From Acidimicrobiia bacterium (GTDB taxonomy: Bacteria > Actinomycetota > Acidimicrobiia > Spongiisociales > ZC4RG35), in assembly GCA_040902855.1 (NCBI GenBank), contig JBBDWN010000029.1, positions 1 to 43,755 of the forward strand: a stretch of 43,755 nt of DNA. Reading direction: 5' to 3'. The notes below the pieces were generated by a model that saw nothing but the letters and a program-made list of their open reading frames with translations, was not told where the DNA came from and did not search any database. Of the stretch, positions 3 to 7,484 are shown in pieces. The stretch's first letter is position 1. Each line of letters opens with the position of its first letter. Position numbers and translations under genes: made by a program.

Positions 3-980
3 GACGCCGCCCAGATCGACATGGTGGACGGCGCGAGGGGCATGGACGAATGGCTGTCTGCCCGACTCGATGTCGACGTCCGGACGGCCCGCACCCTGCT
101 GGGTCTCGCCCGCTCGAACGACGAACGGGTCGACGAGATGCTCGAGGAAGGAGCCAGCGTCGATAGAGCGAACGCCACGCTCCGCCTCATCCAGTCGGGG
201 GCAGATCAGGCCACTGTCGACGAGTCTGTCGGTCGAGACATCGCCGGTGTTCGCCAGATGACAGCCCAACGCCGTCCCATCAGTCCCGATGCGGAGTCAG
301 ATTCCCACGCCGGTCGGTTTCTTCACATGCAGCCTTCCCTCGACGAGAGCATCTGGCGGTTGTGGGGCCAATTGTCCGGTGTCGATGGGCGCATCGTCGA
401 GAAGGCGATCAGCACCTCGGTCGACAGTCTTCCGAACGACCCTGACGTCACCGCCAGCCAGCTTCGGGCGGACGGGCTGGTTTCGGTGGCGTCCGAATGG
501 CTTTCGGGTGAGGTCGGCGGCCACGAACTCACCGCTGAGATCTTCATCGACGCCGCCCTCGCCACCACGTCCGAAGGTCGGGAGGGCGTGAGCGTCGTCT
601 CAGGACCGAGGGTCGGACCGAACACCCTCGGTGAGATCCTCTGCTCCGGCACGGTCCGAGTCACCGTTCATGACGACGTCCTGCGGACCGTCTCCACTTC
701 GCCTACCGGCCGCGCCATTCCCCCTGCGATCCGTTCCCTCGTGCTGCACCGTGACGGTCACCGTTGTGTGATCGGCGGCTGCCAATCCCGATCGAGGCTC
801 CAACCCCACCACCTCGTCCCGTACTCGGAGGGAGGGAGCCATCATCCCGACAACCTCGTCACTTTGTGCTGGTTCCACCATCACGTCGTCGTTCATCAAC
901 GGGGCATGGTGATAGATCCGGCCTCGCCTCCCCACGCCCGTACCTTCCTTCGCGCCATTCCGACCCGCGCCGGTCCCTGA
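3..980 (+). CDS. DUF222/13E12-like protein with C-terminal HNH endonuclease domain (probably 5'-truncated by the window edge)
   Basis: Frame is open from the window edge. The C-terminus has RDGHRCVIGGC...HHLVPYSEGGSHHPDNLVTLCWFHH (HNH/Zn motif), preceded by the helical 'QLRADGLV' region typical of actinobacterial DUF222-HNH proteins. Confidence 0.8.
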   Translation, partial: DAAQIDMVDGARGMDEWLSARLDVDVRTARTLLGLARSNDERVDEMLEEGASVDRANATLRLIQSGADQATVDESVGRDIAGVRQMTAQRRPISPDAESDSHAGRFLHMQPSLDESIWRLWGQLSGVDGRIVEKAISTSVDSLPNDPDVTASQLRADGLVSVASEWLSGEVGGHELTAEIFIDAALATTSEGREGVSVVSGPRVGPNTLGEILCSGTVRVTVHDDVLRTVSTSPTGRAIPPAIRSLVLHRDGHRCVIGGCQSRSRLQPHHLVPYSEGGSHHPDNLVTLCWFHHHVVVHQRGMVIDPASPPHARTFLRAIPTRAGP

Positions 981-1061: not shown

Positions 1062-1674
1062 GGCGGAGTCCGGGGACCTGACGGTCCACGGCATCGAGGA
1101 CCGCTCGCACCATCGCCTGGCTCGGGTTGCTGCCGACCAGGGCGGATCCGACCATCATCTGTTCGCGGCCACCGGTCACAAGTACCACCTGGGCGATGGC
1201 GACGTCCTCTGCCCCGACTCGGTGCACGGCTTCGGCGCTGATCGCGAAGGAAGCCTTCTCGTCGAGCGCCTGCCCGAGGGCGACGAGCGTGGCTTCGGCG
1301 ACCAGCCGCATCCGGGTGGCGGAGGCCGCCGGACCCTCGGCTGTACCGGTCAGCCTTTCGTCGTGCCAGTGCAGTGTGACGGTGACTTTCATCCGGGAGA
1401 AGTCGATCTCCTCGGCGACATCGTCGACGACTGGGCGGTCACCGACGGACAGTTCCTCGCCGTCGATCTGGACGACCGAGATGATCCTGCGATCGATGTC
1501 GAGATCGAACGCCGCCATCGCCACCGACTGGACGTCACGCACCACTTGTTTGGCCGGTTTTCCTGGCGTGGCGAGGACATGGACCTCGCGCGGTCTGTTG
1601 CCTTCGAGCACGATCCGGACGTTCTCGACGCCGGGGATCCGGGCGATGGCCGCTTCGAGTGCCTTGACATCCAT
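1054..1674 (-). CDS. Hypothetical cytoplasmic protein (206 aa), divergent from the peptide/HD-GYP operon
   Basis: Start re-assigned to ATG 1674 (MDVKALEAAIARIPGVENVRIV...) with TACGCT -10-like hexamer 9 nt upstream. Globular alpha/beta pattern (EVHVLA..KPAKQVVRDVQS; DRRIISVVQI; GSALV...AVLDAVDR). Confidence 0.8.
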   Translation of the reverse strand: MDVKALEAAIARIPGVENVRIVLEGNRPREVHVLATPGKPAKQVVRDVQSVAMAAFDLDIDRRIISVVQIDGEELSVGDRPVVDDVAEEIDFSRMKVTVTLHWHDERLTGTAEGPAASATRMRLVAEATLVALGQALDEKASFAISAEAVHRVGAEDVAIAQVVLVTGGREQMMVGSALVGSNPSQAMVRAVLDAVDRQVPGLRRP

Positions 1675-1736
1675 GGTCAGCGGAGCGTAGCCCTCGGACC
1701 CCTTGACAACAGGGACGCGCAGGCGACCCGGGAATG

Positions 1737-1766
1737 TTGCGACTTCGTGATCTCGCCAGGTAGATT
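1737..1766 (+). promoter_or_regulatory. Candidate housekeeping-sigma promoter for the leader/peptide/HD-GYP transcript
   Basis: TTGCGA (1737-1742), 18-nt spacer, TAGATT (1761-1766). Confidence 0.45.
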
Positions 1767-1801
1767 GCACCGTGGTCGGTCTCACACAGGGGGGCCGGCG
1801 G

Positions 1802-1983
1802 AACCGGGATCGCTGCCCGGTTGGGAGGTGGGCGGACCTGTAATAGGTGGGGCCTCACATTGACAAGTGAGGTTTCCCGGCTCGTTTACGAGTCGGGAAT
1901 ACGGGGAGAGCCCGGCGACGGATCCTTCCATCGATGATTACACCGAAGCGGAGCGGAACGACGCGTCGACAGATGTGTCGGCG
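1802..1983 (+). other. Hairpin-rich non-coding region (candidate structured 5' leader or ncRNA)
   Basis: Stems AACCGGG/CCCGGTT (1802-1822), CCTCAC/GTGAGG (1853-1872), TTCCCGGCTCG/CGAGTCGGGAA (1874-1899, one G-U) and CGTCGACA/TGTCGGCG (1964-1983, one G-U), inside a ~340-nt intergenic gap in an otherwise tightly packed window. Confidence 0.45.
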
Positions 1984-2013
1984 AGTCTCAATTCACCGAC
2001 GAGGTGATACCGG

Positions 2014-2103
2014 ATGAAGGCACGCCTGGTCCGGATTCTTGCTGCGGCCGGAAGCCTCGCCACGCTCATAGTGGCTGGCTCGGCTTCCCTGAAGATCGGT
2101 TGA
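2014..2103 (+). CDS. Small 29-aa signal-peptide-like precursor peptide MKARLVRILAAAGSLATLIVAGSASLKIG (absent from the ORF track)
   Basis: GAGGTG Shine-Dalgarno at 2001-2006, ATG 2014, TGA 2101-2103. Basic n-region, hydrophobic h-region and a short polar tail. It lies immediately upstream of the HD-GYP genes on the same strand. Confidence 0.8.
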   Translation: MKARLVRILAAAGSLATLIVAGSASLKIG

Positions 2104-2163
2104 TCTGATCGTCGGGCATCCTCCCGCTCTATGCTCTCAGGCCAACAGAAAGACGCGCGTCGA

Positions 2164-3528
2164 GTGAACGAACGCAGAACCAAGGGACTCCTGGGGTTTG
2201 GCTCCTTCTGCATCGGTTTGATAGGGATTGGCGCGGCTTGGTACTTTCAACCCTTCCGAACTGACGCTCTGGCGATCTGGGTCCTCTTTGCCGTCGCGTA
2301 CGCCGTCTTGTCGCTTCGCTCGGTGGAAGTCAACGATCGAATGCTGGCGAGTTCGAGCGTGATGGCCATTGCGACTGCGGCGACCTACTTTGCGCTTCGA
2401 GGAGACGGAGCAGCGACTGCCGTGGTCATGATTGCTGCCTTCGGTCCATTCGACTCCGGTGACTTCAAGAAGCGGCATATCTTCCAGCCTGCTTTCAATT
2501 TCGGGCTGCTGACCCTGTCCGCGCTCGCATCTGGCGTCGTGGTCGACTTCCTGTTGTGGGGCGATCCAGACCGTGGCCGTGCGGCACTCCTCGATGTCGA
2601 CCCGTCAGGTGGAGTGGCCTTCTTCCAGGTGGCAGCGGTCGGTGCCGCTGCAGCAGCTGTGTACGCCATCACCAACTTCGCCGGCCTGCGGATCGGCGTC
2701 CGGATCGCATATGGAAGGCGAAACGTGATGCCGTGGTCCGGGCTCGGTGTCATTCTCGGATCAATGACCGTGATGGGAATACTCGGTGGGATGCTGGGAG
2801 CGGTCCTCGTATTGGAGGAGTCAGTTGCCTTCCTCGCGCTGATCGTCGTTGTGTATGGCACAGGCCACACCGTGTTCACCTCGTACGCTGAACTGCGTGT
2901 GGCGCATGAGTCCACGCTCCGGGGATTCGTGAAGACGCTCGAAACCCGTGACTTGTACACGCGCGGTCACACGGAACGCGTTGCATATTTCTGTCGGCTG
3001 GTCGGATCAGAGCTCGGCTTCACGGGAACACAGCTCGAGCACATGCGCTGGGCCGCTTTGATTCATGATATGGGCAAGTTGGCTATCCCGATCGAGCTCA
3101 TGCAAAAGCAGGGCAAGCTGACGGATGACGAGTACCGGCGACTTCGCACCGCCACCCATAAGGTGGACGACCTTCTTTCCGAGGTCGACTTTCTTCGTCC
3201 GATGGTCGACGTCGCCAGCGGGGCACATCCGAGCTTGCCGAGCGAGGACTACGGGCAGGTGGGCCACCACCACACGACAAAACCGACGCTTGAGCAGAAG
3301 GTGCTGGCGGTGGCGGACGCATTCGATGCCATGACCAGCACACGCGGATACCGGATGGCGATGAGTCAGAAGGTGGCGCTTCAGACCCTCAAAGAGGATT
3401 CGAGTCCTCTGTACGACGCGGATGTGGTCGACGCGCTCGCTCTCGCCCTGGGGGATGTCGGTGAGACGTACGGACCACCGCACCTCATGACATCTGAATT
3501 GTCCGAGGAGGTTGCGAGTGGTCGATGA
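2164..3528 (+). CDS. Multi-pass membrane protein with C-terminal HD-GYP-type domain (degenerate)
   Basis: Several hydrophobic helices, then ETRDLYTRGHTERV, HDMGK and VADAFDAMTSTRGYR. HHE and GYP motifs are not intact. Start is GTG 2164 or ATG 2131. Confidence 0.85.
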   Translation: MNERRTKGLLGFGSFCIGLIGIGAAWYFQPFRTDALAIWVLFAVAYAVLSLRSVEVNDRMLASSSVMAIATAATYFALRGDGAATAVVMIAAFGPFDSGDFKKRHIFQPAFNFGLLTLSALASGVVVDFLLWGDPDRGRAALLDVDPSGGVAFFQVAAVGAAAAAVYAITNFAGLRIGVRIAYGRRNVMPWSGLGVILGSMTVMGILGGMLGAVLVLEESVAFLALIVVVYGTGHTVFTSYAELRVAHESTLRGFVKTLETRDLYTRGHTERVAYFCRLVGSELGFTGTQLEHMRWAALIHDMGKLAIPIELMQKQGKLTDDEYRRLRTATHKVDDLLSEVDFLRPMVDVASGAHPSLPSEDYGQVGHHHTTKPTLEQKVLAVADAFDAMTSTRGYRMAMSQKVALQTLKEDSSPLYDADVVDALALALGDVGETYGPPHLMTSELSEEVASGR

Positions 3529-4774
3529 CTCACGACCTCACCTGATGTGGATAGCGTCAGCATTGCTTCCGCTGGCGTCGCTGGGCGTGGGTGTGACGCT
3601 GGTGATTCCGCTGACGCCGACCACTCGGTTCGCTGTGGGCGTGGCCTCAGTCTGCTTCACGCTTGCGTCCCTCATTCAGGTTCCGACGACAGGGCGAAGC
3701 AAGTACACCGCGGCGTACTTGGTGGTGGCGTCGATTCCGTTCGTTCGGACCGGGGGAGTGCCCGTGTTTACGTTCACGAGTGCCGTCGCAGTGTTGACGT
3801 TCGGAGTCGGACTCTCGTGGATCTTGCTTGCTGCCCGGGGCGACGATCAGCGTGGAGTTGCGCTTGTAATCATCAAGCGCCTTTTTGCACACGTCGCATA
3901 TCTCGTGGTTTTCTACGGCGTCCGATCGGTTCTGATGGATTCGGAGCTGGGGACGTGGGCGGACGCGATTCTTTTCGCATGCGCCGCCGCCGGTGCGTTC
4001 GCCGCCGAACTGGCATCCAATGCAGTGTTCCGCGTCGGTTCGGGCGGCCGTCCTCGTCTGTACGTGGCACTCGATACTGCGCGTGACTTCCGGGTGTTCC
4101 TGTCCCTGGTGGCGTCAGGCGCCTTGTTCGGAATTGCGTTCGAGACCATCGGTTGGTGGTCGCTCTTGTTGGCCGCCCTTCCCTACGCCTTCGCCCACGG
4201 GGCGTTTCGGCGGTACGGGGACGCCCGACGGACGTACTCGCAGACGATGCGATCTCTCGCCAGGATTCCGGAGGTTGCGGGGCACTCGGATCCTGGGCAC
4301 GCCGCTCGGACGGCTGACTTGGCCGTCGGGGTGGCCGCCGAACTCGGGCTGCGACCGCGCGACGTGGACACGGTCGAATACGCCGCCCTGCTTCACGACA
4401 TCGGTCGGATCTCGCTGAACGAGCCGAGCGTCCTCCGCATGGGGTTCACAGACAGCGACATCGCCAGATGGGGTTCGGAGATCGTGGGGGAGACCTCGTA
4501 TCTCGCCGAGGTCAGCGACGTCGTGCTTCGCCAGCACGAGCCGTATCGGAACCCTGGCATGGAGAGCAGCGAGGACGTGCCGATCGCCGCCAAGATCGTC
4601 AAAGTCTGCAGCGCGTACGACGAGTCCACCCATGAGTTGGGGTCCTCACCGCTCGAGTCGATGGAGAAGCTGCATCGCGGTTCGGTCTACGACTACGACC
4701 CCGAAGTGGTGGCGGTGCTCCGGCGGCTGCTCGAACGTCGCGGCGAGTTCGACCGGCCGGTCAGCCGCCGTTGA
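3518..4774 (+). CDS. Second multi-pass membrane protein with degenerate HD/HD-GYP-type domain
   Basis: GAGGAGG RBS at 3505-3511, GTG 3518 overlapping the upstream stop. TM helices, then GHAART, LLHDIGRI, RQHEPYR, IVKVCSAYDE and YDPEVV. Confidence 0.85.
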   Translation: MVDDSRPHLMWIASALLPLASLGVGVTLVIPLTPTTRFAVGVASVCFTLASLIQVPTTGRSKYTAAYLVVASIPFVRTGGVPVFTFTSAVAVLTFGVGLSWILLAARGDDQRGVALVIIKRLFAHVAYLVVFYGVRSVLMDSELGTWADAILFACAAAGAFAAELASNAVFRVGSGGRPRLYVALDTARDFRVFLSLVASGALFGIAFETIGWWSLLLAALPYAFAHGAFRRYGDARRTYSQTMRSLARIPEVAGHSDPGHAARTADLAVGVAAELGLRPRDVDTVEYAALLHDIGRISLNEPSVLRMGFTDSDIARWGSEIVGETSYLAEVSDVVLRQHEPYRNPGMESSEDVPIAAKIVKVCSAYDESTHELGSSPLESMEKLHRGSVYDYDPEVVAVLRRLLERRGEFDRPVSRR

Positions 4775-5353
4775 TCACCGACCCCGGGTCGCCGACCCGC
4801 CCTGCAGTTTCACGCCTGGCTTGAACCAGCGGACGGGGCGTCGGAGTTCGGCTTCGAGGAAGCGTCCCAAACCCACCGCCAGGAAGACGTCGCCGATCGA
4901 GATCACCGAGCCCTGGTTGGCCATCCGGATCGGGATGACGTCGGCGAGGAACGACAGCATCGTGTCTGCGTCTAGTTCCGTGTGCTTGGCGGCATTGGTG
5001 AGATCGGGTCCGCCCGGGGCGTATCCGGCCGCTACTTCGATCGCCCCTTCGAGGACCGGCATGCCGCCGTTGAGTGCGATGACGGTGAAGTTGAGCAGCA
5101 CACCCACACCCGCCAACCAGAGACCGGAACGGTCTCGGTTGAGGATCATCAACGCAAGAAGCGGGAGGTAGGAGGTCAGCACCAGGTAGAACCCGACGTC
5201 GGGATCTATCCGGATTGCGATGCCCTGCATGGCGAAACCGAGGGGCAGCAACCACCACATCTTCAGCCTGATGTCGGCGAGATTGGTGAGACGTCCCCCA
5301 CGTAACACCGCAACGGACATCGCCACGAAGAGGACGATGACAAGCCACAGCAT
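4775..5353 (-). CDS. DUF5317-like membrane protein, putative LspA-like intramembrane aspartic peptidase
   Basis: RGGRLTNL near the N-terminus, N..NGGMPV, FLADVI and SIGDVFLAVG motifs recognised as DUF5317. TAGCGT -10 lies 9 nt upstream of the ATG. Confidence 0.8.
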   Translation of the reverse strand: MLWLVIVLFVAMSVAVLRGGRLTNLADIRLKMWWLLPLGFAMQGIAIRIDPDVGFYLVLTSYLPLLALMILNRDRSGLWLAGVGVLLNFTVIALNGGMPVLEGAIEVAAGYAPGGPDLTNAAKHTELDADTMLSFLADVIPIRMANQGSVISIGDVFLAVGLGRFLEAELRRPVRWFKPGVKLQGGSATRGR

Positions 5354-5401
5354 GCGGTGGGAACGCTATCACAGGCAGTTCCGGCCAGAATGTGCGATCT
5401 G

Positions 5402-6166
5402 ATGGTCATCTACGAAATCTCCGCCTCGGTCGCAACGCTCACGATGAACGATCCGGAACGCCGGAATCCGCTTGGCTCCGAGACCATCGAGGGTCTCATC
5501 GACGGGCTGCAGCGGGCACTGGACGATCCGCAGGTGTCGGTTGTCGTGATCACAGGCGCCGGCGATGCGGCCTTCAGCGCCGGAGGGGATCTGGCGTCTG
5601 GATTCTTCGAGGATCCCGTGGCGAGACACTCGGAGAGGGGACGGTTCGCCGATCTCCTGAGGCTCTTGTGGAGTGGCGGGAAGCCGACGGTGGCTCGCGT
5701 CAACGGCCATGCGCTCGCCGGCGGTTTTGGGCTGGCGGTGGCCTGTGACATCACTCTCTGCGTGGACGACGCGAAGCTGGGTGTGCCCGAAGTTCGCGTC
5801 GGACTCTGGCCGATGATGATCACGGTGGCGCTGGCGCGGGCGATGCCGCAGAAGGCGGCCCTGGAACTGATGCTGACCGGTCGGACGATCACTCCGAACG
5901 AGGCGCTTCGGCTCGGTGCAGTGTCACGGGTGGTTCCCCGTTCGGGGCTCGACTCCGCTGTCGAAGAGACGGTTGCGTCGTTACGGAATGCGCCTTCGAG
6001 CGTGATGATCGGACGCGACGCCTTCATGTCCGTGGCCTCGACCGATCCGGACACGGCCCTTGATCGACTCCAGGGTGGGTTGACGGCTGTCGCATCCACC
6101 CGCGACGCTCGCGAAGGGGTCAGCGCGTTTGTCGAGAAGCGTCCGCCCTCATTCGGCCAGCAGTGA
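5402..6166 (+). CDS. Enoyl-CoA hydratase/isomerase family protein
   Basis: AFSAGGDL, VNGHALAGGFGLAVACD, PEVRVG and DAREGVSAFVEKRPP crotonase motifs. Start probably ATG 5402. Confidence 0.9.
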   Translation: MVIYEISASVATLTMNDPERRNPLGSETIEGLIDGLQRALDDPQVSVVVITGAGDAAFSAGGDLASGFFEDPVARHSERGRFADLLRLLWSGGKPTVARVNGHALAGGFGLAVACDITLCVDDAKLGVPEVRVGLWPMMITVALARAMPQKAALELMLTGRTITPNEALRLGAVSRVVPRSGLDSAVEETVASLRNAPSSVMIGRDAFMSVASTDPDTALDRLQGGLTAVASTRDAREGVSAFVEKRPPSFGQQ

Positions 6167-6206
6167 ATCGCTTTCTAACTCGAGACTCCGGATAGCCTGA
6201 GGCGCG

Positions 6207-6923
6207 ATGCGCAGAAAGATTCGAATCGCCGGCTTTGCCATGGTGTGGACCGGGGTGTTGACCCTGGGAATCGTTGCGTATCAACTCGTCGTGACTGACT
6301 TCCTCAACGATCGCGTACAGGAGGAGGCACGCACCGAACTGGTCACCGGCCTCGATGAGCGTCGGGACACCCTCGAAACGCCGGTGACCGTGACCGTTCC
6401 ATCACAGACCACGGATACCACCCAGGCCCCGGTCGTCGAGACGATCGACTTTCACCCGGAGGACGCGGTAGAAGAGGGCGATCCTTTCGGCGTCATTCGC
6501 ATCCCATCGATCGAACTGGACTGGGTGCTCTTCGGTGGGGTTCTCCCGGCGACGTTGAACCAGGGTCCTGGGCACATGCCGTGGACCCCGCTCCCGGGCC
6601 AGCCCGGCAATTCCGTCATCTCGGGACACCGGACGACGTATGGAGCTCCTTTCTTCGACCTCGACCTGCTCGAACCAGGCGACACCATCGAGATCGAGAC
6701 CGCGATCGGAGTTCACACCTACACGGTCCGAGACACCATCGTCGTCACCGCCTACGACGTATGGGTCACCAATCCCAAGCCGGGGGCGTGGCTGACGCTC
6801 ACGACCTGTCATCCCAAGTTCTCGGCCGCCCAACGGCTCATCGTCCAGGCCGAACTCACCGACGGGCCCAACCTCGACTATGCCCAGTTTCTCTTCGACA
6901 CCCAGTTCAGCGCCGTCTCCTGA
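6207..6923 (+). CDS. Class E sortase
   Basis: N-terminal TM anchor, GHRTTYGAPF, catalytic LTLTTC followed by R (QRLIV). TAGCCT -10 lies 8 nt upstream of the ATG. Confidence 0.9.
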   Translation: MRRKIRIAGFAMVWTGVLTLGIVAYQLVVTDFLNDRVQEEARTELVTGLDERRDTLETPVTVTVPSQTTDTTQAPVVETIDFHPEDAVEEGDPFGVIRIPSIELDWVLFGGVLPATLNQGPGHMPWTPLPGQPGNSVISGHRTTYGAPFFDLDLLEPGDTIEIETAIGVHTYTVRDTIVVTAYDVWVTNPKPGAWLTLTTCHPKFSAAQRLIVQAELTDGPNLDYAQFLFDTQFSAVS

Positions 6924-7484
6924 TCAGCCGCCGATCGCCCGGCTCAACTCCACGGCGGTGACGCCACCCGCCTTCGACCAGCGAATCGCCCCCTGGGCAT
7001 CGATGACAACGGTGAACGGCATCCCCACCGACGGATAGCGATCTCTGATGCGGCCCGTGGCGTCCATCCCGACGAGATAGCGCGGCTGAAGGTCGTCCGC
7101 CATCGCCTGGGCTTCGGAGGCGGATACGTCGACAGAGACACCGATGACGACATGGTCCGGGTTGGCGTCTGCGAAAGCCGAGAGTTCGGGAATCTCGTCC
7201 CGACAGGGGATGCACCAGCTCGCCCAGAGGTTCAGTACCACCGGCCGGCCATCCTCCGCCAGATGCTCGGAAAGCCGCCACTCGGAGCCGTCGAACGCGG
7301 CCAACACCACCTCTGGCGCCACTCCGGTGAGGCTTCCCCCGGACCCTTCGTCGCCCGGATCACCGAGTGCCTGGGCCACGAGGAGACCGATGGCGACGAC
7401 GACTACGAACACGAGTGTCAGGCGACCGCGCGCCGGCTGGAGCGGAGCCACCGGTTCGTGGAACAGTCGATCGGGGGTTGTCAT
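6924..7484 (-). CDS. TlpA/ResA family membrane-anchored thiol-disulfide oxidoreductase
   Basis: TM helix, VVLNLWASWCIPCRDEIP (CxxC) and the GMPFT cis-Pro motif. Confidence 0.9.
   Translation of the reverse strand: MTTPDRLFHEPVAPLQPARGRLTLVFVVVVAIGLLVAQALGDPGDEGSGGSLTGVAPEVVLAAFDGSEWRLSEHLAEDGRPVVLNLWASWCIPCRDEIPELSAFADANPDHVVIGVSVDVSASEAQAMADDLQPRYLVGMDATGRIRDRYPSVGMPFTVVIDAQGAIRWSKAGGVTAVELSRAIGG

What the first reader, a model, noticed from the sequence alone, without database searches (positions are those of the whole stretch)
2014..2103. Unannotated 29-aa peptide with a Cys-less lipobox-like site (VAG|S)
Seen: MKARLVR (basic), ILAAAGSLATLIV (hydrophobic), AG-SASLKIG-stop. It is essentially a signal peptide carrying only a 5-7-residue cargo. 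V20-A21-G22|S23 fits the lipobox [LVI][ASTVI][GAS]|C with Ser in place of Cys. Known: pheromones derived from signal-peptide-like precursors exist (enterococcal sex pheromones, SHP, Phr). Inference: the mature signal is SASLKIG, or SLKIG if cut after A24, possibly modified on Ser. It is too short for the supplied ORF track, so standard annotation would probably miss it.
Basis: partly seen in the sequence, partly recalled or inferred. Interest (0 to 1): 0.85.

Follow-up and report, generated by a model that had tools for sequence, protein, structure and literature searches.

The report
Conserved leader mini-gene before HD-GYP genes
The 29-codon reading frame is a real, conserved small gene that sits inside a folded RNA leader in front of two membrane signalling enzymes, and it probably helps to switch those enzymes on or off rather than being a lipoprotein-like pheromone.

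Summary
The ORF at 2014-2103 exists as described, with a GAGGTGA ribosome-binding site 6 nt upstream. It is a real gene. In 55 of 55 distinct related loci the frame is exactly 29 codons, variation peaks at third codon positions, and pN/pS is 0.48. It always lies directly upstream of a conserved pair of membrane HD-GYP-type genes, in one order of Acidimicrobiia.

The "Cys-less lipobox" reading fails: 0 of 50 peptide variants contain Cys. The invariant G22-x-A24 fits a signal-peptidase-I site better.

Two facts were new. First, the ORF is embedded in a covarying structured leader RNA. A long-range helix joins the leader (1903-1924) to the 25 nt that begin at the ORF's stop codon (2102-2123). Second, lineages that lost the hydrophobic body still keep a translated mini-ORF of 6-27 codons ending in [KR][IV]G-stop at the same place.

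Best reading (about 0.5): a translated leader cistron whose ribosome must open the helix in front of the HD-GYP genes. In most lineages the product is also selected as a signal-anchor-like membrane peptide. An exported pentapeptide (SLKIG) is not excluded.

No expression data were available.

The parts
1858..2013 (+). Conserved structured 5' leader RNA. The covariance model R1 matches 1858-2025. Conservation within the genus extends further upstream, to about 1773.
   Evidence: Alignment. R1 was built and matches 40 of 45 related loci. In the own genome it matches only this place strongly, E 1.4e-44. On the R1-fitted alignment there are 152 compensatory cells against 40 +/- 6 in shuffles and 19-38 in slid controls. 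No Rfam family matched at E<=10 other than two chance lncRNA hits.
1860..1865 (+). TTGACA motif, conserved across the order. No -10 box follows at promoter spacing.
   Evidence: The promoter scan found nothing.
1874..1899 (+). Hairpin P1 (1874-1884 pairs with 1889-1899), with a loop of variable length in relatives.
   Evidence: Helix 1: 95% of cells paired, and 6 of 7 pairs show changes on both sides.
1903..1924 (+). 5' strand of the long-range helix (GGGGA..GCCCGGCGACGGAUC). It overlaps a possible local hairpin at 1902-1914.
1947..1957 (+). Invariant leader motif AGCGGAGCGGA.
   Evidence: AGCGRAGCG is found 61-79 nt before the small ORF in 51 of 51 loci examined. These columns are invariant in alignment A4.
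1960..1987 (+). Hairpin P4 (1960-1971 pairs with 1976-1987).
   Evidence: The hairpin is present with different sequences in nearly all lineages. Helix 4: 8 of 8 pairs show changes on both sides.
1993..2007 (+). The small ORF's Shine-Dalgarno GAGGTGA (2001-2007). GGUGA (2003-2007) can pair with UCACC (1993-1997).
   Evidence: An SD-like motif is present in 50 of 55 distinct loci. The anti-SD hairpin is seen in many lineages but not all.
2014..2103 (+). The 29-codon small ORF (MKARLVRILAAAGSLATLIVAGSASLKIG, stop TGA).
2086..2100 (+). Codons of the C-terminal pentapeptide S25-L-K-I-G29. The family motif is [S/N/T]-hydrophobic-[K/R]-[I/V]-G-stop.
   Evidence: Residue table. Strict [KR][IV]G-stop occurs in 63 of 71 distinct loci, against 121 of 14200 shuffles.
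2102..2123 (+). 3' strand of the long-range helix. It starts inside the stop codon and ends 8 nt before the first possible start of the HD-GYP gene.
   Evidence: One search gives the pairs 1910-1924/2102-2117 and 1903-1907/2119-2123. They are present in both the MFE and the centroid structure, z = -3.47. The complementarity is lineage-specific.
2131..3528 (+). HD-GYP-type gene 1 (P0002): about 8 membrane helices followed by an HD_5 domain. The alignment with orthologues suggests the true start may be GTG 2164.
   Evidence: Pfam HD_5, E 1.1e-19. AF2 model with pLDDT 78.9. Fold matches to HD-GYP structures 9rbz, 4mcw and 4r8z at E about 1e-5. Orthologue alignment A2.
3512..4774 (+). HD-GYP-type gene 2 (P0003), overlapping gene 1 by 17 nt.
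   Evidence: Pfam HD and HD_5. It is 25% identical to P0002 over the HD part. A P0003-like gene follows in 27 of 27 loci with at least 900 nt of room downstream.

Best explanation
The ORF is a translated leader cistron, the first reading frame of an operon laid out as structured leader RNA, 29-codon ORF, then two membrane HD-GYP-type genes.

Shown:
- The ORF is under purifying selection as a protein.
- It lies inside a large folded RNA domain. The closing helix of that domain pairs the leader (1903-1924) with the 22 nt that begin in the ORF's own stop codon (2102-2123).
- This helix covaries between lineages.

Inferred, role in cis: a ribosome that reads the ORF to its stop must open this helix, which lies directly before the start of the first HD-GYP gene. 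Translation of the ORF, itself gated by the leader fold and in many lineages by an anti-SD hairpin, would therefore set the fold of the mRNA in front of the enzymes and so their expression. This role looks universal. Lineages that lost the hydrophobic body still keep a translated mini-ORF ending in [K/R][I/V]G-stop at the same spot.

Inferred, role in trans: in this window and in most lineages the product is also selected as a peptide. It has the shape of a signal anchor: basic N-terminus inside, 13-17 hydrophobic residues, an invariant small-x-small G22-S23-A24, and a 5-residue tail outside. It probably inserts into the membrane, where it may stay as a micro-protein next to the HD-GYP pair or be cut after A24. 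This second role is dispensable, having been lost at least 6 times.
For: Real coding gene: fixed 29 codons in 55 of 55 distinct loci, a start codon in 51 of 55, an SD-like motif in 50 of 55. pN/pS is 0.41 for the hydrophobic body and 0.48 for the tail, with pS near saturation. Codon-position entropy is 24.6/13.1/39.9.

Strict synteny: 29 of 30 peptide-centred loci have the P0002 orthologue immediately downstream on the same strand; the 30th ends at a contig end. The second HD gene follows in 27 of 27. By my manual cross-tabulation, 90 of the 96 peptide-positive genomes have the HD orthologue.

Leader RNA: R1 matches 40 of 45 loci, including loci without an intact 29-aa ORF, and is single-copy in the own genome. 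Covariation is 152 compensatory cells against 40 +/- 6.

Long-range helix: duplex z averages -3.42, and 61 of 70 loci have z < -2. Cognate pairs average -36.4 kcal/mol against -26.8 for non-cognate pairs, and the cognate is in the best 5% in 43 of 70. The helix is in the MFE and the centroid of the window, z = -3.47.

Retention of the ORF end: [KR][IV]G-stop occurs in 63 of 71 loci against 0.85% of shuffles. That includes all 20 loci that lack the hydrophobic peptide but have the leader. K/R is encoded by AAG, AAA, AGG, AGA, CGG and CGT. In f9 the mini-ORF start overlaps the stop of a preceding ORF as ATGA or GTGA in 5 loci.

Losses nested in the tree: the 29-aa form occurs in all major clades of the HD tree, and the reduced forms sit in separate derived clades.

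Precedent in Actinobacteria for riboswitch-plus-uORF control with NUGA overlaps and termination-reinitiation: PMC11260477 (passages read).
Against: - No expression or translation data of any kind were obtained.
- No experiment shows that the helix forms, or that opening it changes HD-GYP expression. The direction of the effect (on or off) is unknown.
- Many orthologous HD genes have their own SD-like motif and a 26-81 nt spacer, so strict coupling is not required.
- A purely cis role does not explain why the whole 29-residue body is conserved with a signal-peptide-like layout. A trans role does not explain why the tail alone survives. The two-role reading is therefore a compromise, not a demonstrated mechanism.
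- The covariation counts were made on an alignment fitted to the model. The loci are related, so the statistics overstate independence.
- The tree root is a midpoint only, so 'ancestral' rests on parsimony.
Confidence: 0.5

Rival explanations
1. Exported peptide signal. The first 24 residues are a signal peptide cut by signal peptidase I after A24. The released pentapeptide SLKIG (SFKIG in most relatives) is a signal that acts on the HD-GYP pair. It would act either from outside or, like Phr peptides, after re-import. Lineages with the 6-codon mini-ORF would make the same pentapeptide directly in the cytoplasm after Met removal.
For: The n-h-c layout is present, with A24 in 50 of 50 and G22 in 46 of 50 at -1 and -3, and S/N/T at +1. 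The hydrophobic core of 13 residues is in the range that I recall as typical of cleaved signals (recalled, not tested). The f9 mini-ORF starts exactly at the A24 position in 9 of 9 loci and has S, T or G second. The tail is under purifying selection, pN/pS 0.48.
Against: - No exporter, protease or peptide-receptor family lies nearby. The neighbours are HD-GYP genes, an enoyl-CoA hydratase, a sortase and a thioredoxin-like protein.
- The predicted external loops of P0002 are short, acidic and poorly conserved (0.20-0.39). The predicted cytoplasmic loops score 0.64-0.80.
- Other reduced lineages keep 8-27 codons in which only [KR][IV]G is conserved, not the pentapeptide.
- The body is as conserved as the tail, which is unusual for a mere export signal.
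- A 29-residue precursor with no pro-region is shorter than any Phr precursor I can recall (recalled).
Confidence: 0.15
2. Trans-acting membrane micro-protein only. The uncleaved 29-mer is a single-pass helix that packs against the membrane domains of the two HD-GYP proteins and tunes them, as MgrB does for PhoQ. Its place in the leader would be incidental.
For: - Substitutions in the body are conservative and hydrophobic, and small residues are nearly invariant: A16 49/50, A21 48/50, G22 46/50, A24 50/50.
- The basic N-terminus fits an N-in orientation.
- It is strictly co-located with membrane proteins whose helix 7 carries invariant glycines G216, G219 and G223.
- It is never found away from the HD pair in the loci examined.
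Against: - It does not explain why at least 6 lineages lost the helix yet kept a translated ORF end at the same nucleotide position.
- It does not explain why the stop codon sits in the foot of a covarying helix.
- No fused form was seen: no HMM hit lay in an open frame of HD-protein length except three weak partial ones.
- HD orthologues do without it in 64 of 154 genomes (manual cross-tabulation).
Confidence: 0.15
3. Nascent-peptide sensor. The peptide acts only inside the ribosome. Its C-terminal [K/R][I/V]G slows termination, perhaps in response to a small molecule, as TnaC, SpeFL or the MAGDIS uORF do. The stalled ribosome would hold the long-range helix open.
For: - The last three residues plus the stop are the only universally kept feature, and K/R is kept through six different codons.
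- The length of 29 codons is close to what fills the exit tunnel (recalled figure of 30-40 residues).
- The stop codon abuts the helix.
Against: - Reduced lineages work with 6-27 codons, so body length is not critical.
- All three stop codons are used: TGA 39, TAG 14, TAA 2.
- A signal-peptide-like body is not expected of an arrest peptide.
- The I/V codon ends in C or T in every sequence printed and UCGG can pair with the downstream CCGG. Part of this conservation may therefore lie in the RNA.
Confidence: 0.12
4. Chance ORF in a conserved non-coding leader. The conservation would be entirely that of the RNA.
For: The region is part of a conserved structured RNA. An internal hairpin can form within the ORF at 2059-2063/2071-2075.
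Against: Variation has three-base periodicity, pN/pS is well below 1 only in this frame, the stop is fixed at codon 30, SD and start are conserved, and Ser is kept through TCN and AGY codons.
Confidence: 0.02

Closest known systems
Riboswitch-associated translated uORFs in Actinobacteria (Mycobacterium tuberculosis metE and ppe2 leaders; PMC11260477, passages read)
   Same: A structured 5' leader is followed by a short translated ORF whose translation sets expression of the downstream gene. NUGA stop/start overlaps and termination-reinitiation occur there; here they are seen in family f9.
   Different: Those leaders are known B12 riboswitches, whereas this leader matches no Rfam family. Here the uORF peptide itself is conserved across an order and has a signal-anchor shape. 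The closing helix spans the whole ORF.
Leader peptides whose ribosome remodels the mRNA before the next gene (ermCL-ermC, secM-secA, tnaC, speFL; recalled from the literature, no paper read)
   Same: A short ORF sits in the leader, conservation is concentrated at its C-terminal end, and an RNA helix next to its end would be opened by the ribosome.
   Different: No stalling and no ligand is shown. The body looks like a membrane-targeting sequence. At 29 residues it is too short for the force-sensing mechanism of SecM or MifM.
Phr-type pentapeptide precursors of Bacillus, and signal-peptide-derived enterococcal pheromones (recalled)
   Same: An N-terminal secretion signal is followed by a conserved C-terminal pentapeptide with a basic residue. 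The gene lies next to the regulated signalling protein.
   Different: There is no pro-region and no RRNPP/TPR receptor; the neighbours are HD-GYP proteins. No processing is shown. Some lineages encode the tail without any signal.
Small membrane-protein regulators of membrane sensors (MgrB-PhoQ, SafA, AcrZ, KdpF; recalled)
   Same: Size (29 aa), a single hydrophobic helix, and a gene adjacent to its likely membrane partner.
   Different: No sequence relation was found: no Pfam or NCBIfam hit. No binding evidence. The helix has been lost repeatedly while the ORF end was kept.
c-di-GMP-riboswitch-controlled small membrane proteins of Clostridioides difficile (PMC13724677; abstract and section 7 read)
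   Same: Small membrane-associated proteins encoded right behind a structured leader, in a cyclic-dinucleotide signalling context.
   Different: Those are 58 aa, multi-copy and stand-alone, sit behind known class I riboswitches, and have no homologues outside C. difficile according to that paper. Here the gene is single-copy, first in an operon with the phosphodiesterase-type genes, and follows an unclassified leader.

Membership tests
Bacterial lipoprotein signal peptide (lipobox) | Invariant Cys at +1, which is lipidated by Lgt and then cleaved by signal peptidase II | tested here: not met
   No Cys in the window peptide, nor in any of 50 distinct family members.
Bacterial lipoprotein signal peptide (lipobox) | [LVI][ASTVI][GAS] at -3 to -1 | tested here: met
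   V20-A21-G22 fits the pattern. Without the Cys this has no meaning.
Sec-type signal peptide cleaved by signal peptidase I | Basic n-region, hydrophobic core of about 7-15 residues, small uncharged residues at -3 and -1 | tested here: met
   MKARLVR, then ILAAAGSLATLIV (13 residues), then G22 and A24. Across the family position 7 is R/K in 50/50, G22 in 46/50 and A24 in 50/50. No signal-peptide predictor was available.
Sec-type signal peptide cleaved by signal peptidase I | Actual export and cleavage, with a mature domain beyond the site | not testable with these tools
   Only 5 residues follow the site, and there are no experimental data.
Regulatory leader peptide / uORF | Short translated ORF in the 5' leader of the regulated gene, on the same transcript | tested here: inconclusive
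   Position, SD, start and coding selection are met. A shared transcript and translation itself are inferred, not observed.
Regulatory leader peptide / uORF | Ribosome position on the ORF changes an mRNA structure that controls the downstream gene | tested here: inconclusive
   A covarying long-range helix begins in the stop codon. Its effect on expression was not tested.
Phr / RRNPP-type peptide signalling cassette | Adjacent cytoplasmic TPR-type (RRNPP) receptor | tested here: not met
   The neighbours carry HD / HD_5 domains only, and no TPR family was reported.
Known riboswitch or RNA families (Rfam 15, including c-di-GMP-I/II and ydaO) | Match to a curated covariance model | tested here: not met
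   In window 1400-2400 at E<=10 there were only two chance hits to vertebrate lncRNA models, far below their gathering scores.
HD-GYP phosphodiesterase (for the downstream P0002) | HD_5 / HD domain and HD-GYP fold | tested here: met
   PF13487, E 1.1e-19. Foldseek matches to 9rbz, 4mcw and 4r8z at E 1e-5 to 7e-4.
HD-GYP phosphodiesterase (for the downstream P0002) | HHExxDGxGYP signature (motif recalled) | tested here: not met
   The window protein reads ..GAHPSLPSEDYGQVGH... More distant orthologues read HHS.YDGSGYGG (alignment A2). The motif is degenerate, so c-di-GMP hydrolysis is not assured.
Any named small-protein family | Match in Pfam-A or NCBIfam | tested here: not met
   0 families for the peptide in Pfam at E<=0.01 and E<=10, and in NCBIfam at E<=1.

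The most novel reading that the evidence does not exclude
The conserved C-terminal pentapeptide ([S/N/T]-hydrophobic-[K/R]-[I/V]-G; SLKIG here) is a free signalling peptide for the membrane HD-GYP pair. In most lineages it would be delivered by a minimal 24-residue signal peptide and released by signal peptidase I. In one family it would be encoded directly as a 6-codon gene. Its production would be gated by a new class of riboswitch-like leader whose closing helix spans the whole mini-gene. That would link a peptide cue and an RNA sensor to cyclic-dinucleotide turnover in an uncultured actinobacterial order.
Probability: 0.15. Interest if true: 0.85.

Novelty: new variant of a known kind. Interest (0 to 1): 0.62.

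Why it matters
Small ORFs in leaders are usually dismissed, or read either as 'micro-proteins' or as 'uORFs'. Here comparative data separate two layers of constraint on one 29-codon gene. One is a peptide body with a membrane-targeting shape. The other is an ORF end tied to a covarying long-range RNA helix.

The system controls a conserved pair of membrane HD-GYP-type enzymes in a poorly studied, mostly uncultured order of Acidimicrobiia. If the model holds, it gives three things:
- an unclassified structured leader, a riboswitch candidate, for second-messenger enzymes;
- a natural series, from 29 down to 6 codons, showing what a leader cistron minimally needs;
- a testable candidate for peptide input into cyclic-dinucleotide signalling.

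It also shows that a 'Cys-less lipobox' is not a useful category.

Tried and rejected
- **Complex prediction.** I folded P0002 residues 1-262 (alignment A2) with the small ORF's 31-residue open frame (alignment A3). The scores were 0.02 and 0.05 and the verdict was 'no answer', so it counts neither way.
- **RNA sequencing runs** for window 1700-3600: no RNA holder was listed. This is no evidence on expression.
- **ESM Atlas** with the 31-aa open frame: the nearest clusters are unnamed 29-30-aa hypothetical proteins at score 0.89. These are leads only.
- **Rfam**: nothing relevant.
- **Promoter and terminator scan**: nothing. My candidate promoter, TTGCGA 1737-1742, N18, TAGATT 1761-1766, rests only on conservation.
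- **RNAalifold** on the plain MAFFT alignment of 41 leaders gave no pairs because the hairpin arms were misaligned. mafft-qinsi was not installed. I solved this with a 12-sequence alignment and a covariance model.
- **Pfam on the membrane domains** of P0002 and P0003 at E<=10: nothing meaningful. Foldseek found no match for the membrane domain.
- **Inner pairings of the window MFE.** These pair leader 1945-1956 with the A21-S25 codons, and 1930-1935 with the I28-G29 codons. I do not accept them: those codons vary synonymously while the leader motif is invariant.
- **Fused forms.** No peptide-HD fusion was seen among the HMM hits.
- **Literature.** Searches for 'small membrane protein' + HD-GYP + upstream, small protein / c-di-GMP / phosphodiesterase terms, HD-GYP + 'leader peptide' and Acidimicrobiia / small proteins / riboswitch listed no paper on this family. 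Supplementary files were not consulted.
Full report
**1. The observation**

The window holds an ORF from ATG 2014 to TGA 2101-2103 that reads MKARLVRILAAAGSLATLIVAGSASLKIG. GAGGTGA lies at 2001-2007, 6 nt before the ATG. Two overlapping genes for multi-pass membrane proteins with HD / HD_5 domains follow: P0002 at 2131-3528 and P0003 at 3512-4774. Upstream, a divergent gene with no known family ends its coding region near 1674. The peptide matches nothing in Pfam or NCBIfam.

**2. Is it a gene?**

I fetched orthologues of P0002 from 40 related genomes. A homologous 29-codon ORF sits directly upstream in 24 of the 27 loci with intact upstream DNA. This holds even where P0002 is only 43-50% identical, and the peptide is the better conserved of the two, at 38-93% identity to the window's.

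- Third codon positions vary most and second positions least: entropy 24.6 / 13.1 / 39.9 for positions 1 / 2 / 3.
- pN/pS is 0.43 in frame, against 0.95 and 1.8 in the shifted frames.
- With all loci gathered later (66 loci, 55 distinct coding sequences, 50 distinct peptides), the frame ends at codon 30 in 55 of 55. It starts with ATG, GTG or TTG in 51 of 55 and has an SD-like motif in 50 of 55.
- pN/pS is 0.70 for residues 2-7, 0.41 for 8-24 and 0.48 for 25-29.
- No other frame on either strand is both open and constrained.
- Ser23 uses both TCN and AGY codons, and Ala and Gly codons vary freely.

The constraint is therefore on the protein, and a chance ORF is excluded for practical purposes.

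**3. Distribution and context**

An HMM of the peptide finds it in 96 of 201 sampled genomes of the order, usually once per genome. In a sample of 301 genomes of the class, all strong hits lie inside the order. Five weak partial hits outside it look like N-termini of other proteins. The only organism name seen is 'Acidimicrobiia bacterium', for a public record of one variant.

In 29 of 30 peptide-centred loci the P0002 orthologue follows immediately on the same strand; the 30th is cut by a contig end. The second HD gene follows in 27 of 27 loci with room. The P0002 orthologue (E<=1e-50) is present in 154 of the same 201 genomes.

By my manual cross-tabulation, 90 of the 96 peptide-positive genomes are HD-positive. 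Of the other six, three have the peptide at a contig end, two are unclear and one is a doubtful hit. The peptide is thus never seen away from the HD pair, whereas the HD pair often occurs without an HMM-detectable peptide. In family f9, for example, HD is found in 28 of 29 genomes and the peptide in 0 of 29.

**4. The downstream proteins**

An AF2 model of P0002 (pLDDT 78.9) has a helical membrane domain followed by a domain that matches solved HD-GYP structures 9rbz, 4mcw and 4r8z. The membrane domain matches nothing.

The GYP signature is degenerate in this genus and reads GYG in distant orthologues. With an 8-helix, N-in topology, which I infer from hydropathy and the positive-inside rule, the two kinds of loop differ:

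| Predicted loops | K+R per sequence | Conservation |
|---|---|---|
| Cytoplasmic | 2.8 / 0.9 / 3.4 / 1.5 | 0.64-0.80 (N-terminus excepted) |
| Outside | 0.2-0.6 | 0.20-0.39 |

There is no sign of a conserved external binding site.

**5. A structured leader**

The 160 nt before the ORF are conserved across the order: a TTGACA motif, a hairpin with a variable loop, an invariant AGCGRAGCG at -61 to -79 in 51 of 51 loci, and a second hairpin.

A covariance model built from 12 sequences matches 40 of 45 loci, including two without an intact 29-aa ORF. In the window's genome it matches only this site. In a class-wide sample it matches 11 of 151 genomes, all inside the order. On the model-fitted alignment, 89% of cells pair and 152 cells are compensatory. 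Shuffles give 40 +/- 6 and slid controls 19-38. Rfam has no match.

**6. What survives when the peptide is lost**

In lineages where the HMM finds nothing, the leader is still there. This covers f9; genera g12, g33, g35 and g38 and part of g34; one genome in f10; and L018. A short ORF still ends at the same place with x-[K/R]-[I/V]-G-stop.

- Family f9 has a 6-codon M/V-[S/T/G]-W-[K/R]-[I/V]-G. In five loci its start overlaps the stop of a preceding short ORF as ATGA or GTGA, and in one locus the two are fused into a 23-codon frame.
- Elsewhere there are ORFs of 8, 14, 26 or 27 codons with non-hydrophobic bodies.

The strict motif [KR][IV]G-stop occurs in 63 of 71 distinct loci, against 121 of 14200 shuffles. 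The other eight have near variants. K/R is written with six different codons.

On a tree of 76 HD orthologues the 29-aa form occurs in every major clade. The reduced forms sit in separate derived clades. The tool counts 8 changes, and two rows were mis-scored for lack of upstream DNA, so I count at least 6. The root is a midpoint only.

**7. A long-range helix abuts the stop codon**

The 30 nt after the stop are complementary to the leader segment just 3' of the first hairpin. This holds in almost every lineage, with different sequences in each.

- The mean z against shuffles is -3.42, and 61 of 70 loci have z < -2.
- Cognate pairs average -36.4 kcal/mol against -26.8 for non-cognate pairs, and the cognate is in the best 5% in 43 of 70.
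- In the window, both the MFE and the centroid of 1858-2175 contain the helix: 1910-1924 with 2102-2117, and 1903-1907 with 2119-2123. The z-score is -3.47, and 0 of 100 shuffles fold as well.

The helix starts inside the stop codon and ends just before the first candidate start of P0002. Its 3' strand carries a pyrimidine tract. In several relatives that tract can instead pair with the SD of the HD gene (not quantified). Its 5' strand overlaps a possible local hairpin. This is the layout of a switch, although I have not shown that it switches.

**8. Reading**

The simplest account of sections 6 and 7 is a role in cis. A ribosome has to be brought to exactly this stop codon, where it opens the closing helix of the leader domain in front of the HD-GYP genes. 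A comparable interplay of riboswitch and uORF is documented in Mycobacterium tuberculosis (PMC11260477, passages read).

Section 2 shows that in most lineages, including this one, the whole peptide is also selected. Its layout is that of a signal anchor or a cleavable signal, with A24 in 50/50 and G22 in 46/50. I therefore favour a two-layer model at confidence about 0.5.

The rivals are an exported pentapeptide (0.15), a purely trans-acting micro-protein (0.15), a nascent-chain termination sensor (0.12) and a chance ORF (0.02). The coincidence of the f9 mini-ORF start with the predicted cleavage site keeps the pentapeptide idea alive. The poorly conserved outer loops of P0002, and the other reduced lineages that keep only [KR][IV]G, speak against it.

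**9. Limits**

- No transcript or translation data could be obtained, and complex prediction gave no answer (see Tried and rejected).
- Related genomes are not independent samples.
- The covariation count leans towards the model it was fitted to.
- The long-range helix was tested by duplex energies, not by a phylogeny-aware covariation test.
- Rows from the unpublished genomes G027 (L024, L058) and G038 (L027, L076) are included in alignments A1-A4, in the tree and in the counts. G210 enters only the tally. No conclusion depends on them.

Noticed in passing
window 21-980 (+): A 319-aa ORF with an HNH endonuclease domain (Pfam, E 2e-5). It also has a partial match to NCBIfam 'RNA-guided endonuclease IscB' (E 1.3e-10, 40.9 bits against a cutoff of 175).
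   Followed up: no
window 1737-1766 (+): TTGCGA-N18-TAGATT is conserved in the genus, and the TAGATT-like box more widely. It could be the operon promoter, giving a leader of about 240 nt. The simple promoter scan did not call it.
   Followed up: partly
window 2095-2100, and the same codon in relatives: The codon for I28/V28 ends in C or T in every sequence printed (ATC, GTC, CTC, GTT, ATT, TTC; never GTG), although GTG is common at V20. UCGG here can pair with the conserved CCGG 10-16 nt after the stop, forming a small hairpin around the stop codon. In the window this is 2094-2099 with 2105-2110. It would compete with the long-range helix.
   Followed up: partly
L064, L078, L081, L082, L083 (family f9): Two tiny ORFs, MW(S/Q)TVG.. 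of 15-18 codons and then M/V-(S/T)-W-R-(V/I)-G, are linked by ATGA/GTGA stop-start overlaps. In L080 they are fused in one 23-codon frame.
   Followed up: partly
L092 and L084: The C-terminal motif is duplicated in tandem..NTKIGNTKIG-stop and ..GWKIGSPIDGWKIG-stop.
   Followed up: no
window 2131-3528 (P0002), residues 63-72, 120-125 and 199-205: The membrane domain carries invariant polar motifs SVEVND, QP..NFG and PWS. These lie in loops that I predict to be cytoplasmic, and two of them have pLDDT below 50 in the model. They could form a ligand- or ion-binding site of an undescribed sensor domain.
   Followed up: partly
window 2131-3528, around residues 360-385: The GYP signature is degenerate in this genus (..AHPSLPSEDYGQVGH..), whereas distant orthologues keep HHS.YDGSGYGG. 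The enzyme's substrate is therefore uncertain.
   Followed up: no
window 5357-7484: Downstream neighbours are an enoyl-CoA hydratase (5357-6166), a sortase (6207-6923) and a thioredoxin/AhpC-like protein (6924-7484, minus strand). The 179-aa ORF at 4632-5171 has no family.
   Followed up: no
G000 contig C80:215-361 (-), locus L063: A weak second match of the leader model R1 in the same genome (E 0.08, 18 bits). It is probably noise.
   Followed up: no
L029 (G025): A divergent 33-codon ORF, MERFVKRRYENIRRYLADLAAGPLAGVANLRVD, takes the place of the 29-aa ORF. Its body is only weakly hydrophobic and it ends in RVD.
   Followed up: no
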